In this document: positions 18,616-22,610 of the stretch, piece by piece
Layout: the number at the start of each line of letters is the position of its first letter
How positions within the stretch are numbered: position 1 is the stretch's first letter
Origin: a virus
Taxonomy: Duplodnaviria > Heunggongvirae > Uroviricota > Caudoviricetes
Length of the DNA stretch: 22,610 bases
Reading direction: 5' to 3' (one strand)
IMG/VR virus record: IMGVR_UViG_2526164650_000003
Translations under genes and position numbers: made by a program
The notes under the pieces: model-generated
Database searches by the model: none
Told to the model about the DNA's origin: nothing
What the model saw: the letters and a program-made list of their open reading frames with translations, nothing else

Positions 18616-18789
18616 AAGCGTTTTATCTTCAACGGGAATGAGATATGGAAACGTGGAGAATCAACCACAGAGTATACCCGCGCACACCAGCGAACAATCA
18701 GACGACTGCGCAGACTCATCGCCAGGAAACAGTATACAGAAAAATGGTTCAGAAAATATGACACATGGAGCGCCGGATATTACGAACTG
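18616..18789 (+). pseudogene. Start-less ORF fragment immediately right of the IS600-like element
   Basis: Open frame ...EYTRAHQRTIRRLRRLIARKQYTEKWFRKYDTWSAGYYELMATKPF with protein-like composition but no ATG/GTG start after the upstream stop; likely 5'-truncated. Confidence 0.25.
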
Positions 18790-18870
18790 ATGGCAACAAA
18801 ACCATTCTGACGTAAACGAAATTAACCATGACGCAATTAAATAAGGCAAGCCGAATACATCAGGAGGACC

Positions 18871-19059
18871 ATGAACATTTATTTCAGAATAGTTATATCA
18901 CTGGCAATTATCGCATGTATTTACGGATTAATCGTTCCGGCCCTCATATCAATGAAGGATACGGTAGCAGTGATTTCTGGCTTTGCTCTGGCGTGTCTGA
19001 CCCCGCCCTGCATTTATGCCATTTATAAGGGTCTTTCTTTTTCTAAGGATAAAAGATGA
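18871..19059 (+). CDS. Small two-pass membrane protein (62 aa)
   Basis: Strong SD caggagg 6 nt upstream; two hydrophobic helices (IVISLAIIACIYGLIVPALI and VAVISGFALACLTPPCIYAIY); its stop overlaps the ATG of the next gene (ATGA). Confidence 0.6.
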   Translation: MNIYFRIVISLAIIACIYGLIVPALISMKDTVAVISGFALACLTPPCIYAIYKGLSFSKDKR

Positions 19060-19883
19060 AAAAAGTTATTCCTGCTTTAGCCCTTGTTCTGCTGACCACC
19101 GGACTTGTCGGTTGCGATCGCGTTGAGCCTGGTAATGTTGGCATCAAGGTAAACAAACTGGGCGACGATAAAGGCGTCGGAGAAGTGGTCGGTGTTGGGC
19201 GCTACTGGACGGGATGGAACACTGAGGTTTACATCTTCCCGACCTTCAAACAAATGAAGACCTACGATGAGCCATTCAGCTTCCAGATGAGTGACGGTAC
19301 AACCATCGGCTATCACATCGGCGTGGCCTACAAAGTTGATCCATCCAAAGTTACCACAGTCTTTCAGACCTACCGCAAAGGCGTGGACGACATTACCGAC
19401 ACCGACCTGCGCCAGAAGATAGCCGACGCACTCAACCGACTGGCCAGCAAAATGACCACCGACAAATTTATCGACGGCGGCAAGTCTGAGCTGCTGGATG
19501 CAGCTCTTAAAGACATTCAGGAAGAAATGACGCCCATCGGTATTCAGGTAATGAGCCTCTCATATGTGGGTAAGCCGGAGTACCCGCCTACTGTTATCGA
19601 CAGCATTAATGCCAAAGTCACGGCGAACCAGAAAACCCTGCAATGCGAGCAGGAAGTAAAACAGCGCGAAGCGGAAGCCAACATGTTGCGCGCGGAAGCT
19701 GCCGGACAGGCAGATGCGATTCGCACAAAAGCCCAGGCCGAAGCCGATGCTATTCGTTTACGCGGTGAAGCTCTGCGCCAGAACCCAAACGTTATGGAGC
19801 TGGAAGCCATCAACAAGTGGAACGGTACACTGCCGCAATACATGACCAGCGGTGCCAACACACCATTTATTCAGGTTAAGTAA
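19056..19883 (+). CDS. SPFH/band-7 (prohibitin/HflC-like) domain lipoprotein
   Basis: 275-aa ORF with a lipoprotein signal peptide and lipobox (LLTTGLVGC, Cys20), a band-7-like core and an Ala/Glu/Arg-rich coiled-coil tail (EQEVKQREAEANMLRAEAAGQADAIRTKAQAEADAIRLRGEA) typical of SPFH proteins. Confidence 0.65.
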   Translation: MKKVIPALALVLLTTGLVGCDRVEPGNVGIKVNKLGDDKGVGEVVGVGRYWTGWNTEVYIFPTFKQMKTYDEPFSFQMSDGTTIGYHIGVAYKVDPSKVTTVFQTYRKGVDDITDTDLRQKIADALNRLASKMTTDKFIDGGKSELLDAALKDIQEEMTPIGIQVMSLSYVGKPEYPPTVIDSINAKVTANQKTLQCEQEVKQREAEANMLRAEAAGQADAIRTKAQAEADAIRLRGEALRQNPNVMELEAINKWNGTLPQYMTSGANTPFIQVK

Positions 19884-19926
19884 TACATATGCCCGGTATT
19901 ACACGCCGGGCTGTCTGGAGATAAAA

Positions 19927-20676
19927 ATGAATACTGTAACCATCAACAACAAACAGTTTCCGGTAATCGAATATCGCGGTCAGCGTGTTGTGACGCTGGC
20001 GATGATTGATGAAGTCCACCAGCGACCGGAAGGAACCGCGCGTGCAGCATTCAACCGAAACCGTGAGCATTTCATCAGCGGTGTGGATTATGCCGAATTA
20101 GGTGCGGACGTAATACGTACGGACCTCCCGGAAGGAACATTCTCTAAATTTGCACCATCGGGGATTGTACTTTTTGAATCAGGTTACCTGATGTTGACGA
20201 AGCCATTCAATGACGCCCTTGCCTGGCAGGTTCAGCGCGAACTGGTTAACAGCTACTTCCGCACTCGCACACCGCTAACGGAAATCGAGATGATCGCTGC
20301 GATAGCCGCCGACGCTGTTCGTCAACAGAAGCGCCTGAATCATGTGGAAGAACAGCTCGAAACAGTCACAGAAGCGGTGGAAACCATCAAACGCGGAAAT
20401 ATGCGCGCCGGATATGTCGGTTACCGCCAGGTGGTAGCCAAAAGTGGAATGAGTGACACCAAGTGTCGGAATCTGGTGAACGCATATCAAATTCCTACAG
20501 ACACCCACGAATTCATGACTCCGGACGGTCTGTTGTCTCGCAGGGCTATCGTCGAGCTTGAGCCATTTATGGCGGCGTTCCACCAAATGATGTCAGAGGC
20601 TGACCCACGCGGCACACGCTGGTATCACCCGAAGATGGGGCTTTTCCAGGTGATCGGATGGGAGGATAAAGCATGA
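19927..20676 (+). CDS. KilA-N/ORF6N-family DNA-binding protein (antirepressor-like) with unknown C-terminal domain
   Basis: Start at MNTVTINNKQFPVIEYRGQRVVTLAMIDEVHQRPEGTARAAFNRNREHFISGVDY, a pattern typical of KilA-N/ORF6N N-terminal domains of phage antirepressors; SD ggag upstream. The ORF-track version carries a 25-aa upstream extension. Confidence 0.55.
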   Translation: MNTVTINNKQFPVIEYRGQRVVTLAMIDEVHQRPEGTARAAFNRNREHFISGVDYAELGADVIRTDLPEGTFSKFAPSGIVLFESGYLMLTKPFNDALAWQVQRELVNSYFRTRTPLTEIEMIAAIAADAVRQQKRLNHVEEQLETVTEAVETIKRGNMRAGYVGYRQVVAKSGMSDTKCRNLVNAYQIPTDTHEFMTPDGLLSRRAIVELEPFMAAFHQMMSEADPRGTRWYHPKMGLFQVIGWEDKA

Positions 20677-21242
20677 TCATCCAGTCAAAACTTATTCGCG
20701 CCGCTCTGGTGTGCGCTGCTAAAAACGACGTTCGTTATTACCTGAACGGTCTTCACATCACGCCGAAACATATTGAGGCAACCAATGGTTCCGTGGCACT
20801 GCGCATGGCTCACGGCATCCGGACGAAGAAAAACATCATTGTCCAGTTCGAAGGGGGCGTCCCGGCCAAAGCCGAAACGACAGAGCTGATTTTTAGTAAA
20901 GAGCCGATCGCTGTTCATCGCGACCAGTTTCAGCGACGACTGTCCATTACCGGCATTAAACTGGTGGACGGTTGTTTTCCGGATTTGGATCGCATCATTC
21001 CGAAAAAGTTTGACCGCTGTACTCACCCGGTGCTCCAGGCGGGTTACCTGAGTTATCCAGAGAAGATGTTTGGTCGTGAGCGTAAATTTATTCCCGTCCA
21101 GTTACGTCCCTCCGGTGACGGGCAAGCGGTCAGAATTCAGTTTGATTCCATCATCAACTCAATGTATGGCAATCCTGAATTTGTTGTGATGCCTTGTCGT
21201 GATCATGGCGATTTCAACGTGGCTCAGGAGCATCCGGAATGA
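20673..21242 (+). CDS. Truncated DNA polymerase III beta sliding-clamp (DnaN) homolog, 189 aa
   Basis: Three collinear DnaN-like motifs: KNDVRYYLNG (cf. DnaN QDVRYYLNG, start of domain II), IKLVDGCFPDLDRIIPKK (cf. SKLVDGRFPDYRRVLPKN, domain II-III linker) and EFVVMPCR near the C-terminus (cf. AYVVMPMRL). Start overlaps the upstream stop (ATGA). Confidence 0.6.
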   Translation: MIIQSKLIRAALVCAAKNDVRYYLNGLHITPKHIEATNGSVALRMAHGIRTKKNIIVQFEGGVPAKAETTELIFSKEPIAVHRDQFQRRLSITGIKLVDGCFPDLDRIIPKKFDRCTHPVLQAGYLSYPEKMFGRERKFIPVQLRPSGDGQAVRIQFDSIINSMYGNPEFVVMPCRDHGDFNVAQEHPE

Positions 21243-21361
21243 AAATCGAATACCAGGACGCCGCAGGAGGTGAATCAATGAGCTGGCCTGATGCAATCGT
21301 AACTCTGGGGATGGTATTCGCAGTAGCGTTTGTTGTGTACTCGATTTGTCGATGGGGATAA
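21239..21361 (+). CDS. Small membrane peptide (40 aa from ATG 21239, or 27 aa from ATG 21278)
   Basis: MKIEYQDAAGGES-MSWPDAIVTLGMVFAVAFVVYSICRWG. The first ATG overlaps the DnaN-like stop (ATGA); the internal ATG has a perfect SD aggaggt 6 nt upstream. A single hydrophobic helix. Confidence 0.4.
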   Translation: MKIEYQDAAGGESMSWPDAIVTLGMVFAVAFVVYSICRWG

Positions 21362-21365
21362 CCAC

Positions 21366-21608
21366 ATGTTCGCTTTGATTCAACGCGGGCAGATATACAC
21401 AGACAGAGCCGGATACCCAGTAGAAATTACTCGCAGTACTGAGCACTCAGTGTTCTTTCGGAGGATGGACGGACGTACCGGGCGAGTACGCATCGGTGAA
21501 TTCAGTAGCCTGTTCGAGCATATTGACCACCTGGAATATCACAAGATTCTGGCTGAAACAGAACAAGAAAAGCACCTGAAGAAATTACGCGCAATGCAAA
21601 GGAAGTAA
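21366..21608 (+). CDS. Small phage protein of unknown function (80 aa)
   Basis: MFALIQRGQIYTDRAGYPVEITRSTEHSVFFRRMDGRTGRVRIGEF...; tightly packed in the operon 4 nt after the preceding stop. Confidence 0.5.
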   Translation: MFALIQRGQIYTDRAGYPVEITRSTEHSVFFRRMDGRTGRVRIGEFSSLFEHIDHLEYHKILAETEQEKHLKKLRAMQRK

Positions 21609-21611
21609 AAA

Positions 21612-21758
21612 ATGAATAAAGCGTTTGAGCTATGGGTCCACCAGCGTTACGGCAACCACTACGACCTGACGCGAGATGTTGACGGTTTCTACTGTCGTGA
21701 AATTGTGAAACGAATGTTTGAGGTCTGGTGCCACTGCCGTGGGCTGAGTGTTGTGTGA
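21612..21758 (+). CDS. Small Cys/Trp-containing phage protein of unknown function (48 aa)
   Basis: MNKAFELWVHQRYGNHYDLTRDVDGFYCREIVKRMFEVWCHCRGLSVV; SD aaggaag 8 nt upstream; below the ORF-track length cutoff. Confidence 0.4.
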   Translation: MNKAFELWVHQRYGNHYDLTRDVDGFYCREIVKRMFEVWCHCRGLSVV

Positions 21759-21766
21759 GGTAATGC

Positions 21767-22610
<844 letters not shown>

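What the first reader, a model, noticed from the sequence alone, without database searches (positions are those of the whole stretch)
21239..21361. Micro-ORF for a single-helix membrane peptide with a perfect Shine-Dalgarno, nested in the operon
AGGAGGT lies 6 nt before an ATG that yields a 27-aa peptide, mostly one hydrophobic helix ending in RWG. An upstream ATG overlapping the DnaN-like stop would add a 13-residue acidic head. Peptides of this size and shape are typical of type I toxins and small membrane regulators, and are usually missed by ORF callers.
Basis: inference. Interest (0 to 1): 0.4.

Follow-up and report, generated by a model that had tools for sequence, protein, structure and literature searches.

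The report
Conserved 27-residue phage membrane micro-protein gene
The tiny ORF is a real, conserved gene for a 27-residue single-helix membrane peptide carried by E. coli/Shigella lambdoid and Shiga-toxin phages; its function is unknown, and nothing in the sequence supports the suggested type I toxin.

Summary
AGGAGGT (21265-21271) lies 6 nt before ATG 21278, giving MSWPDAIVTLGMVFAVAFVVYSICRWG. ATG 21239 overlaps the upstream stop and adds 13 residues.

The 27-aa ORF is a genuine gene family:
- I found about 200 copies, 54 DNA variants and 36 peptides, in Escherichia/Shigella temperate phages including 933W, VT2-Sakai and BP-4795.
- It is present in 1113 of 5426 complete E. coli genomes.
- Start and stop are fixed, and the start forms an ATGA overlap with the stops of at least four kinds of upstream gene with different C-terminal tails.
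- Interior dN/dS is about 0.35.
- Hydrophobicity survives 19-26 substitutions in 54 nt.

The 13-residue head is a lineage-specific recombination scar: the first seven codons of another gene were fused in frame.

Three type I toxin features fail. There is no antisense promoter or known RNA family, no separate transcription unit and no structured leader.

No Pfam, NCBIfam, PHROG, PADLOC or PDB match exists. RefSeq lists the 40-aa form only as "hypothetical protein", and the 27-aa form was unannotated in the seven records I inspected.

Best reading: an N-out/C-in single-pass accessory micro-protein of the exo-xis region that probably acts on a membrane partner. The partner and effect are unknown. 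In this window the prophage is IS-riddled and has lost its native promoter.

The parts
20673..21242 (+). Upstream 189-aa ORF (PGAP: beta clamp domain-containing protein). Its TGA stop at 21240-21242 overlaps ATG 21239.
21226..21230 (+). AGGAG, 8 nt before ATG 21239. It is the ribosome-binding site inherited with the start of a 74-aa gene seen intact in E. coli M8.
21239..21361 (+). The 40-aa ORF as given in the finding. It is a lineage-specific chimera, annotated in RefSeq as WP_255625547.1, 'hypothetical protein'.
21239..21259 (+). Seven codons (MKIEYQD), identical to the start of a 74-aa ORF that follows the clamp gene in E. coli M8. This is the left side of the recombination scar.
21243..21281 (+). 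Vestigial tail of a lost upstream gene, in the clamp gene's frame: KSNTRTPQEVNQ followed by TGA at 21279-21281. In other phages the same ...QEVNQ* tail ends full-length DUF551-type, Ea22-annotated and other upstream genes, and its TGA overlaps the micro-ORF start as ATGA.
21265..21271 (+). AGGAGGT Shine-Dalgarno sequence, 6 nt before ATG 21278. Conserved (GGAGGTG or GGAGGAT) across family contexts.
21278..21361 (+). The family-conserved micro-ORF: 27 aa, MSWPDAIVTLGMVFAVAFVVYSICRWG, plus TAA.
21293..21349 (+). Codons 6-24, the hydrophobic transmembrane core (AIVTLGMVFAVAFVVYSIC). Small residues G11, A13, A15 and A17 are conserved. The core is flanked by W3-P4-D5 and R25-W26-G27.
21366..21608 (+). 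DUF4222 gene (80 aa). It starts 4 nt after the micro-ORF stop. It is the downstream neighbour in about 58% of family copies but not an obligate partner.
21612..21758 (+). 48-aa ORF (phrog_3871), the next gene of the same operon.
21767..21964 (+). Excisionase (DUF1233). Its 3' end has been replaced by an IS3-family fragment. It marks the xis-int end of the exo-xis type accessory region.

Best explanation
Window 21278..21361 is a genuine protein-coding gene for a 27-residue single-pass inner-membrane micro-protein. It belongs to an undescribed family with the consensus M-[STN]-W-P-[DE]-A-[FIL]-x3-G-x-A-x-A-x-A-[LF]-x-x-[YF]-S-I-C-R-W-G. The family is carried as a tiny accessory gene in the early, exo-xis type region of Escherichia/Shigella lambdoid and Shiga-toxin phages.

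Shown:
- The reading frame, start and stop are conserved.
- In most contexts the start is coupled to the preceding gene through an ATGA stop/start overlap plus a strong Shine-Dalgarno sequence.
- The peptide is kept hydrophobic under purifying selection.
- It moves between gene contexts as a unit.

Inferred:
- It is made together with the other early-left genes after induction or infection.
- It inserts with the short acidic N-terminus (W-P-D/E) outside and the R-W-G end in the cytoplasm (positive-inside rule).
- Through its small-residue face (G11/A13/A15/A17) and its invariant ends it binds a larger host or phage membrane protein and changes that protein's activity, as known bacterial single-helix micro-proteins do. 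The partner is unknown.

In this window's lineage a deletion fused the first seven codons and the ribosome-binding site of a neighbouring gene in frame. A 40-aa form with a disordered acidic head can therefore also be made. Where DUF4222 follows 4 nt downstream, its translation is probably coupled to termination of the micro-ORF. In this window the operon has lost its native promoter to an IS600 insertion, so expression here is doubtful.
For: Family size and spread:
- 201 copies, 54 DNA variants and 32 peptides were found in IMG/VR and phage loci. Further members came from an HMM search of 1.84 billion proteins, most of them starting at the internal Met.
- 0 of 198 pattern matches carry an internal stop.
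- In sets anchored on DUF4222, which are not biased by my search pattern, 81 of 82 and 66 of 80 loci have an intact ORF.

Selection on the sense frame:
- Interior dN/dS is 0.34-0.38 in frame, against 0.7-0.8 and about 2 in the shifted sense frames. Third codon positions are the most variable.
- Variants with 19-26 changes in the 54 interior nt keep a mean hydropathy of 1.9-2.8. Random substitution at the same density gives 0.75-1.1 and hits a stop in 39-47% of trials.

Start site:
- The start is always ATGA. The second residue varies (S, T, N, I), but its codon always begins with A.
- The overlapped TGA ends upstream ORFs of 100-437 codons with at least four different C-terminal tails.
- 162 of 201 copies have no in-frame upstream ATG.

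Membrane helix:
- The 19-residue Kyte-Doolittle mean is 2.1-2.4, and the summed apparent insertion energy is -1.06 kcal/mol for the window peptide.
- AlphaFold predicts a helix over residues 16-39 with pLDDT 87-94, and gives the head pLDDT 54.

The head as a scar: E. coli M8 has clamp-ATGA-MKIEYQDYGAV... as a separate 74-aa gene.

Prevalence:
- 1113 of 5426 complete E. coli genomes carry it, with up to 5 copies each.
- 90 phage records match at E <= 0.01. All but one ('Actinobacillus phage vB_Apl-pPE4') are named as Escherichia, Enterobacteria, Shigella or Stx-converting phages.

Context: the region lies upstream of xis-int on the same strand. This matches the exo-xis region described in PMC4195576.
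Against: - There is no direct evidence of translation, membrane insertion or any phenotype.
- No partner can be named, and conservation does not cluster on one helix face (conservation moment p = 0.5).
- The gene is dispensable in some lineages. A degraded remnant occurs in 14 of 80 loci, an R25-to-stop variant occurs in one genome, and it is absent upstream of a distant DUF4222 subfamily.
- One antisense frame shares wobble positions and shows an equally low dN/dS (0.26). dN/dS alone therefore does not prove the sense frame. The argument rests on the fixed start and stop, the Shine-Dalgarno sequence, the ATGA overlap and the retained hydrophobicity.
- The many copies are not independent lineages.
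- The peptide was not found in the supplementary files of a Sakai ribosome-profiling sORF study or of an Enterobacteriaceae micro-proteome survey. Both searches covered held text only.
Confidence: 0.6

Rival explanations
1. It is a type I toxin: a small membrane-damaging peptide whose translation is held in check by an antisense RNA, serving prophage maintenance.
For: - Size and shape fit: 27 aa and one transmembrane helix, similar in size to known type I toxins such as TisB, DinQ and Ibs (from my own knowledge).
- In 933W-type phages and one E. coli prophage it lies about 200-300 nt upstream of a real hok/sok locus.
Against: - No sigma-70-like promoter is found on either strand in 20600-22000, where shuffles give a mean of 1.8.
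- No Rfam family matches, even at E <= 1.
- The sequence downstream of the ORF is non-homologous between contexts: DUF4222, hok, an opposite-strand toxin-antitoxin pair, or a terminator-like hairpin. A conserved cis-antisense promoter outside the 84 nt therefore cannot exist.
- The ORF is not its own transcription unit. It is joined by an ATGA overlap to upstream genes, and its Shine-Dalgarno sequence is strong.
- The mRNA fold is no more stable than shuffled sequence (z = +1.2).
- There is no Pfam Hok/Gef or other toxin family hit, and no PADLOC hit.
Confidence: 0.06
2. The peptide has no function. The conserved 100 nt are a gene-junction cassette: a shared linker where lambdoid phage modules recombine, and/or a spacer that passes ribosomes from the upstream gene to the next one.
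For: - Homology between otherwise unrelated phages begins a few nt before the Shine-Dalgarno sequence.
- The cassette sits at mosaic boundaries with at least four kinds of upstream gene tail and several downstream neighbours.
- The window itself carries a recombination scar at this spot.
- DUF4222 starts 4 nt after the stop, and its Shine-Dalgarno-like GGGGA lies in the last codons of the micro-ORF.
- Some lineages have lost the ORF.
Against: - The DNA is far from conserved: up to 31 of 84 nt differ from the window copy. Yet frame, length, W-P-[DE]-A, G11 and Y-S-I-C-R-W-G persist, and the interior stays hydrophobic far beyond random expectation.
- The ORF is kept where nothing needs coupling downstream: before a terminator-like hairpin, before hok, and before an opposite-strand gene.
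- Distant members on 55-61% GC contigs keep the peptide motif with different DNA.
Confidence: 0.12
3. It is chiefly a leader/upstream ORF that sets the translation level of the DUF4222 gene by termination-reinitiation. The peptide sequence would matter only for ribosome behaviour.
For: - The 4-nt gap TAA-CCAC-ATG is seen in about 117 of 201 copies.
- The operon is tightly packed.
Against: - About 40% of copies have no DUF4222 downstream.
- A distant DUF4222 subfamily (80 loci) has no such ORF upstream.
- Selection for a transmembrane helix is not expected of a simple coupling ORF.
Confidence: 0.1
4. The selected product is on the opposite strand, either an antisense ORF or an RNA, and the sense ORF is incidental.
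For: - An antisense frame that shares wobble positions has dN/dS 0.26 and is open in 52 of 54 variants.
- The window has a 95-aa antisense ORF at 21159..21446.
Against: - The wobble-sharing antisense frame has no conserved start or stop. In 9 of the distinct sequence contexts examined, including the context with the window's upstream sequence, its open stretch holds no start codon at all, and most of the other contexts lack an ATG start. Its ends move with the flanks.
- The 95-aa ORF is in a different frame, one with dN/dS of 1.1 or 2.3.
- All neighbouring genes are on the + strand, and no promoter-like site is found on the - strand.
Confidence: 0.02

Closest known systems
RefSeq WP_255625547.1 (40 aa, 'hypothetical protein', PGAP) and its clusters P0001-P0003
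   Same: It has the same coordinates as the finding. The window's 40-aa product was not among the proteins returned; P0001-P0003 are 98%, 93% and 70% identical to it.
   Different: Only the lineage-specific chimeric 40-aa form is called. The 27-aa family form was unannotated in the seven records I inspected. No family, name or function is attached.
Bacterial single-helix regulatory micro-proteins (AcrZ, MgtS, MgrB, PmrR, KdpF, CydX), a functional class known from the literature
   Same: Size (about 20-50 aa), one transmembrane helix, and short ends carrying the conserved residues. The proposed mode of action, binding a larger membrane protein, is the same.
   Different: No sequence relationship. 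The best hit is KdpF TIGR02115 at E 0.12 and 12.5 bits, against a cut-off of 26.85. There is no PDB match. This peptide is phage-borne, and no partner is known.
Type I toxins (Hok/Gef, TisB, Ibs, Ldr, DinQ, ZorO)
   Same: A small hydrophobic peptide with one helix, sometimes located next to hokW/sokW.
   Different: No antisense RNA, no own promoter and no structured leader were found. It is translationally coupled inside an operon. Toxicity is untested.
Lambda exo-xis region genes (orf60a, orf61, orf63, orf73, ea22, ea8.5; PMC4195576)
   Same: The same genomic compartment and strand: non-essential accessory ORFs between the early-left genes and xis-int, thought to be read from pL. Ea22-like and DUF551 genes are its usual upstream neighbours.
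   Different: None of the named exo-xis genes is described as a membrane peptide in the parts of that paper I read. In 933W-type phages the gene sits in a different accessory cluster, next to hok.
Phage inner-membrane exclusion proteins (T4 Imm, P22 SieA, HK97 gp15), named from my own knowledge
   Same: Phage-encoded inner-membrane proteins that act on membrane processes.
   Different: They are much larger, there is no sequence similarity, and no evidence here bears on exclusion.

Membership tests
Type I toxin-antitoxin toxin | Small (<60 aa) hydrophobic peptide with one transmembrane helix | tested here: met
   27 aa. The Kyte-Doolittle 19-residue mean is 2.4, and AlphaFold predicts a helix with pLDDT 87-94.
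Type I toxin-antitoxin toxin | Cis- or trans-encoded antisense RNA antitoxin with its own promoter | tested here: not met
   No sigma-70-like site was found on either strand in 20600-22000, and no Rfam match at E <= 1. Downstream flanks are non-homologous between contexts. Consensus scans are weak tests, so experimental RNA mapping is still needed.
Type I toxin-antitoxin toxin | Independent transcription unit with a long structured 5' leader that hides the ribosome-binding site | tested here: not met
   The start forms an ATGA overlap with upstream genes in most contexts. The Shine-Dalgarno sequence AGGAGGT has optimal spacing. The fold z-score is +1.2.
Type I toxin-antitoxin toxin | Growth arrest or membrane damage on expression | not testable with these tools
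   Needs an induction experiment.
Hok/Gef family and other curated small-protein families (Pfam, NCBIfam, PHROGs, PADLOC) | Profile match above the curated cut-off | tested here: not met
   The window peptide has no Pfam, NCBIfam, PHROG or PADLOC hit. Sibling peptides give only weak hits: phrog_4612 at E 0.011 and KdpF at E 0.12.
WP[DE]A...RWG micro-protein family (defined here) | 27-28 aa. M-x-W-P-[DE]-A at the N-terminus, G11, A13/A15/A17, and Y-S-I-C-R-W-G at the C-terminus. A Shine-Dalgarno sequence 5-7 nt upstream. | tested here: met
   The window peptide matches every conserved column of the 36 distinct family peptides. The Shine-Dalgarno sequence was checked.
WP[DE]A...RWG micro-protein family (defined here) | Start codon overlapping the stop of a full-length upstream gene (ATGA) | tested here: inconclusive
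   The ATGA is present at 21278-21281. In this lineage, however, the overlapped frame is open for only 12 codons, a vestige. The real upstream gene stops 36 nt earlier and overlaps the chimeric start at 21239 instead.
Exo-xis region accessory genes of lambdoid phages (a positional class) | Lies between the early-left genes and xis-int, on the same strand as xis and int | tested here: met
   Xis is at 21767 on the + strand. Int follows in near-identical relatives.
Exo-xis region accessory genes of lambdoid phages (a positional class) | Transcribed from pL after induction or infection | not testable with these tools
   In this window IS600 (17740-18558) replaces the upstream part of the operon, and no promoter-like site is found in 18400-22000.
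Single-helix regulatory micro-proteins (a functional class) | Binds a larger membrane protein and modulates it | not testable with these tools
   Needs pull-down, two-hybrid or multimer modelling.

The most novel reading that the evidence does not exclude
A 27-residue phage micro-protein, present in about a fifth of E. coli genomes and in the major Shiga-toxin phages, is a dedicated modulator of a host inner-membrane machine during phage development. Candidate targets are a DNA-entry or exclusion route, the FtsH/HflKC lysis-lysogeny axis, or a transporter. In this reading, its transmembrane length is tuned by slippage of an (Ala-Met)n repeat, and it affects induction efficiency and therefore toxin release.
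Probability: 0.2. Interest if true: 0.55.

Novelty: new member of a known kind. Interest (0 to 1): 0.33.

Why it matters
Small membrane proteins are among the least annotated gene products, and phage accessory regions such as exo-xis are conserved but largely unexplained. This family is short enough (84 nt) to be overlooked by routine annotation. Yet it is widespread in pathogenic E. coli and Shigella prophages, including 933W and the Sakai Stx phages. A defined family with a clear start site, a motif and several natural variants gives a compact target for testing what such phage micro-proteins do. The natural variants include length polymorphisms, a nonsense allele and degraded copies. The case also shows how a recombination scar can create a plausible-looking longer ORF, which is the only form annotation pipelines pick up. 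The finding itself is modest: function is unknown, and the window's copy sits in a decayed prophage.

Tried and rejected
- Curated libraries. Pfam, NCBIfam, PHROGs and PADLOC scans and a PDB sequence search for the peptide returned nothing usable.
- Word-indexed protein search with the 40-aa form. Only 4 hits came back, apparently because gene calls in that collection rarely include the 27-aa form.
- Literature. A search for the motif SICRWG, and searches of the supplements of a Sakai ribosome-profiling sORF paper and of an Enterobacteriaceae micro-proteome preprint, gave no occurrences. The five DUF4222 papers only mention the domain.
- E. coli K-12 prophages. No family member is present in Rac, Qin, DLP12 or e14.
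- Obligate pairing with DUF4222. Rejected: a distant DUF4222 subfamily lacks the ORF, and 933W and ArgO145 have the ORF without DUF4222.
- One conserved helix face as an interaction surface. Not supported.
- dN/dS as the sole proof of coding. Rejected after an antisense frame scored equally low. It was replaced by boundary and hydrophobicity tests.
- Species-representative genomes. The pattern scan found only E. coli and Shigella flexneri, plus one contaminant contig.
Full report
**Observation**

The sequence is as described.
- The 189-aa upstream ORF (20673..21242) ends in TGA at 21240-21242. ATG 21239 overlaps this stop (ATGA) and opens a 40-aa ORF that ends at TAA 21359-21361.
- Inside it, AGGAGGT (21265-21271) is followed by six bases and an in-frame ATG at 21278. 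This gives MSWPDAIVTLGMVFAVAFVVYSICRWG (27 aa).
- The 13 extra residues (MKIEYQDAAGGES) are acidic. The upstream ATG also has its own AGGAG, 8 nt before it.
- Four bases after the stop, the DUF4222 gene begins (21366..21608). A 48-aa ORF and an excisionase follow.
- Among 212 ATG ORFs of 20-50 aa in the window, only these two nested starts combine a Shine-Dalgarno core with a strongly hydrophobic stretch. Shuffles give 0.02 on average.

**Setting**

The window is a decayed lambdoid prophage. In order it holds:
- tail genes J and tape measure on the - strand;
- an IS110-family transposase;
- four tRNAs;
- Q antiterminator and RusA on the - strand;
- IS600;
- a short + strand operon: a 62-aa membrane protein, an SPFH protein, an ORF6N protein, the clamp-like protein, the micro-ORF, DUF4222, the 48-aa ORF and xis;
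- IS3 and IS66 fragments that cut off xis.

Near-identical E. coli loci continue into an integrase next to DUF72/yecN/cmoA. The micro-ORF therefore lies in the accessory stretch that runs into xis-int. This is the compartment known in lambda and Stx phages as the exo-xis region: conserved, non-essential genes thought to be read from pL (PMC4195576). Here IS600 has replaced the upstream part, and no sigma-70-like promoter is detected from 18400 to 22000. Expression of this particular copy is therefore uncertain.

**Is it a gene?**

- Anchoring on the neighbouring DUF4222 gene in IMG/VR gave 82 loci. Of these, 81 have an intact 27-codon ORF in the same place, in 16 different upstream sequence versions.
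- A degenerate DNA pattern found many more. Together there are 201 copies, 54 distinct DNA sequences and 32 peptides, and none of 198 pattern matches has an internal stop.
- A profile search of 1.84 billion protein representatives added further members. Most begin exactly at the internal Met. The hits include divergent ones on 55-61% GC metagenome contigs: MLAQAMGWPDAFALVGGAFATAFIIYAVCKYA and MLLLLADPMNWPEAFRSVGIAFAIAFAVWALVRYL.
- Across 36 distinct peptides, M1, W3 and W26 are invariant. P4, [DE]5, A6, G11, A15 and R25 are nearly so, and A13, A17 and Y21-S-I-C24 are strongly conserved. Positions 8-10, 12, 14 and 19 vary among hydrophobic or small residues.

**Selection**

- For the interior codons, which my search pattern did not constrain, dN/dS is 0.34-0.38 in frame. 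The two shifted sense frames give 0.7-0.8 and about 2. Third positions are the most variable.
- One antisense frame shares the wobble positions and scores equally low (0.26). dN/dS alone is therefore not decisive.
- That antisense frame has no conserved start or stop. In the context with the window's upstream sequence its open stretch contains no start codon at all, and its ends shift with the flanks.
- The sense ORF, in contrast, has fixed ends.
- Family members that differ from the window copy at 19-26 of the 54 interior nucleotides keep a mean hydropathy of 1.9-2.8. Random substitution at the same density gives 0.75-1.1 and hits a stop in 39-47% of trials. I take this as good evidence for selection on a hydrophobic helix in the sense frame.

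**Which start?**

- In every copy the start is ATGA. Residue 2 varies (S, T, N, I), but its codon always begins with A. The overlapped TGA terminates upstream ORFs of 100-437 codons with at least four different C-terminal tails...PEPPQEVNQ*...DDRQEVNQ*...ISVEDILR* and ...IEQEVNR*. This is classic translational coupling, and it pins the start to the position of ATG 21278.
- 162 of 201 copies have no in-frame upstream ATG. The 13-codon extension exists only in the clamp context (20 copies).
- Its origin is visible in E. coli M8. There the clamp gene is followed, with the same ATGA overlap, by a separate 74-aa gene that starts MKIEYQDYGAV....
- In the window's lineage a deletion joined the first seven codons of that gene, with its ribosome-binding site, in frame to the leader of the micro-ORF. 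In the clamp's frame it also left a 12-codon vestige of the lost upstream gene's tail (KSNTRTPQEVNQ*).
- The 40-aa product is therefore a plausible but lineage-specific chimera. AlphaFold gives its head low confidence (pLDDT 54), and gives residues 16-39 as one helix with pLDDT 87-94.
- PGAP annotates only this 40-aa form (WP_255625547.1, 'hypothetical protein'). In BP-4795, 933W, ArgO145 and four other E. coli genomes, the 27-aa gene is an unannotated 84-87 nt gap.

**Distribution**

- 1113 of 5426 complete E. coli genomes carry it, with up to five copies each. 150 places are on plasmids.
- 90 phage records match. All but one ('Actinobacillus phage vB_Apl-pPE4') are named as Escherichia, Enterobacteria, Shigella or Stx-converting phages, and they include 933W, VT2-Sakai, VT1-Sakai, Min27, BP-4795 and YYZ-2008.
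- Among 185,579 species-representative genomes, the strict pattern hit only E. coli and Shigella flexneri. One further hit was a 431-nt contig labelled Xanthomonas pisi that resembles the 933W hok region and is probably a contaminant.
- It is absent from the four lambdoid cryptic prophages of K-12.
- About 58% of copies are followed 4 nt later by DUF4222. Others are followed by hokW/sokW (933W), by an opposite-strand toxin-antitoxin pair (ArgO145), or by a terminator-like hairpin.
- A distant DUF4222 subfamily has no such ORF upstream.
- Fourteen of 80 loci in another DUF4222 set carry a degraded remnant. One genome has an R25-to-stop allele.

The gene thus behaves as a small, mobile and dispensable accessory cassette.

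**What it is not**

Three defining features of a type I toxin were tested, and all three fail.
- No promoter-like site is found on either strand, and no Rfam match is found.
- No conserved flank exists that could hold a cis-antisense promoter.
- There is no separate transcription unit and no stable leader structure (z = +1.2).

Toxicity could not be tested. No defence-system, solved-structure or curated-family match exists.

**Most likely mechanism**

Shown: a translationally coupled 27-codon gene under selection to encode one hydrophobic helix with invariant ends.

Inferred:
- From the positive-inside rule, the acidic M-x-W-P-[DE] end faces the periplasm and R25 faces the cytoplasm. W3 and W26 would sit at the two membrane interfaces.
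- The conserved small residues (G11, A13, A15, A17) suit close helix packing. The peptide most likely acts, like AcrZ, MgtS, MgrB or KdpF, by binding a larger membrane protein of the host or phage during early lytic development.
- Which protein it binds, and with what effect, is unknown.
- Where DUF4222 follows, termination-reinitiation coupling is likely.

I put about 0.85 on 'real coding gene for a membrane helix' and about 0.4 on the partner-binding mode. The overall figure is 0.6.

**Verdict**

It is an undescribed but ordinary kind of gene: a phage single-helix micro-protein. It is widespread and cleanly delimited, and its function is unknown. Interest is modest.

Noticed in passing
window 21243-21281: After the clamp gene's TGA, the same frame stays open for 12 codons (KSNTRTPQEVNQ) and ends in the TGA that overlaps ATG 21278. 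The same ...QEVNQ* tail ends full-length DUF551-type, Ea22-annotated and other upstream genes in other phages. It looks like a vestige of a deleted upstream gene.
   Followed up: partly
P0086, P0090, P0092, P0100: Some family members have an expanded (Ala-Met)n or (Ala-Val)n repeat in mid-helix, for example GIAMAMAMAMAMAVAL. This lengthens the transmembrane segment by 4-8 residues. It could be repeat slippage or an assembly artefact.
   Followed up: no
L083 2501-2950 (phage 933W); L213 2501-2951: In 933W-type phages and one E. coli prophage the micro-ORF lies directly upstream of a hok/sok-type type I toxin locus. In L213 the micro-ORF carries an R25-to-stop (CGA to TGA) allele.
   Followed up: partly
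L214-L293 (14 loci): A shortened, frame-broken remnant of the micro-ORF (ATGATGCTTGGCCTGAAGTATTTTATGTAA...) sits between a DUF551-type gene and DUF4222. The gene has decayed in one lineage.
   Followed up: partly
window 18871-19883: A 62-aa membrane protein (phrog_1130, 'moron' category) overlaps by 4 nt the start of a 275-aa SPFH/Band-7 protein (phrog_200, 'lipoprotein'). This is a membrane-protein pair in the same operon, and its function was not examined.
   Followed up: no
window 20673-21242: Annotation sources disagree on the 189-aa ORF. PGAP names it 'beta clamp domain-containing protein'. It has sub-threshold DnaN hits. Its best PHROG (phrog_3007, E 6e-65) is labelled 'RusA-like Holliday junction resolvase'.
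   Followed up: no
window 13771-14967, 17740-18558, 21939-22313, 22359-22607: Four IS elements or fragments (IS110 family, IS600/IS3 family, an IS3-family fragment and an IS66-family fragment) break up the prophage. Xis (21767..) is truncated and int is missing. The window's micro-ORF and its immediate flanks are identical to two Shigella flexneri loci (L205, L208).
   Followed up: partly
window 15670-15976 (- strand): A cluster of four tRNA genes lies immediately downstream of the Q antiterminator gene (16153..16848, - strand).
   Followed up: no
L207 (NZ_JPLE01000323.1, 'Xanthomonas pisi', 431 nt): This contig carries a 933W-type micro-ORF with the same peptide as 933W, followed by a Mok/Hok-like ORF. 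It is almost certainly E. coli phage contamination in that assembly.
   Followed up: partly
P0007, P0009, P0095, P0103: Public gene calls include artefactual or frameshift fusions. Some are 109-aa 'DUF4222' proteins that start in or across the micro-ORF. Others are upstream genes fused in frame to the micro-peptide.
   Followed up: partly
H61 (PP818812.1, Actinobacillus phage vB_Apl-pPE4, 13106-13186): A phage recorded with an Actinobacillus host carries an E. coli-type copy of the micro-ORF. The host assignment or the origin of the sequence may deserve a check.
   Followed up: no
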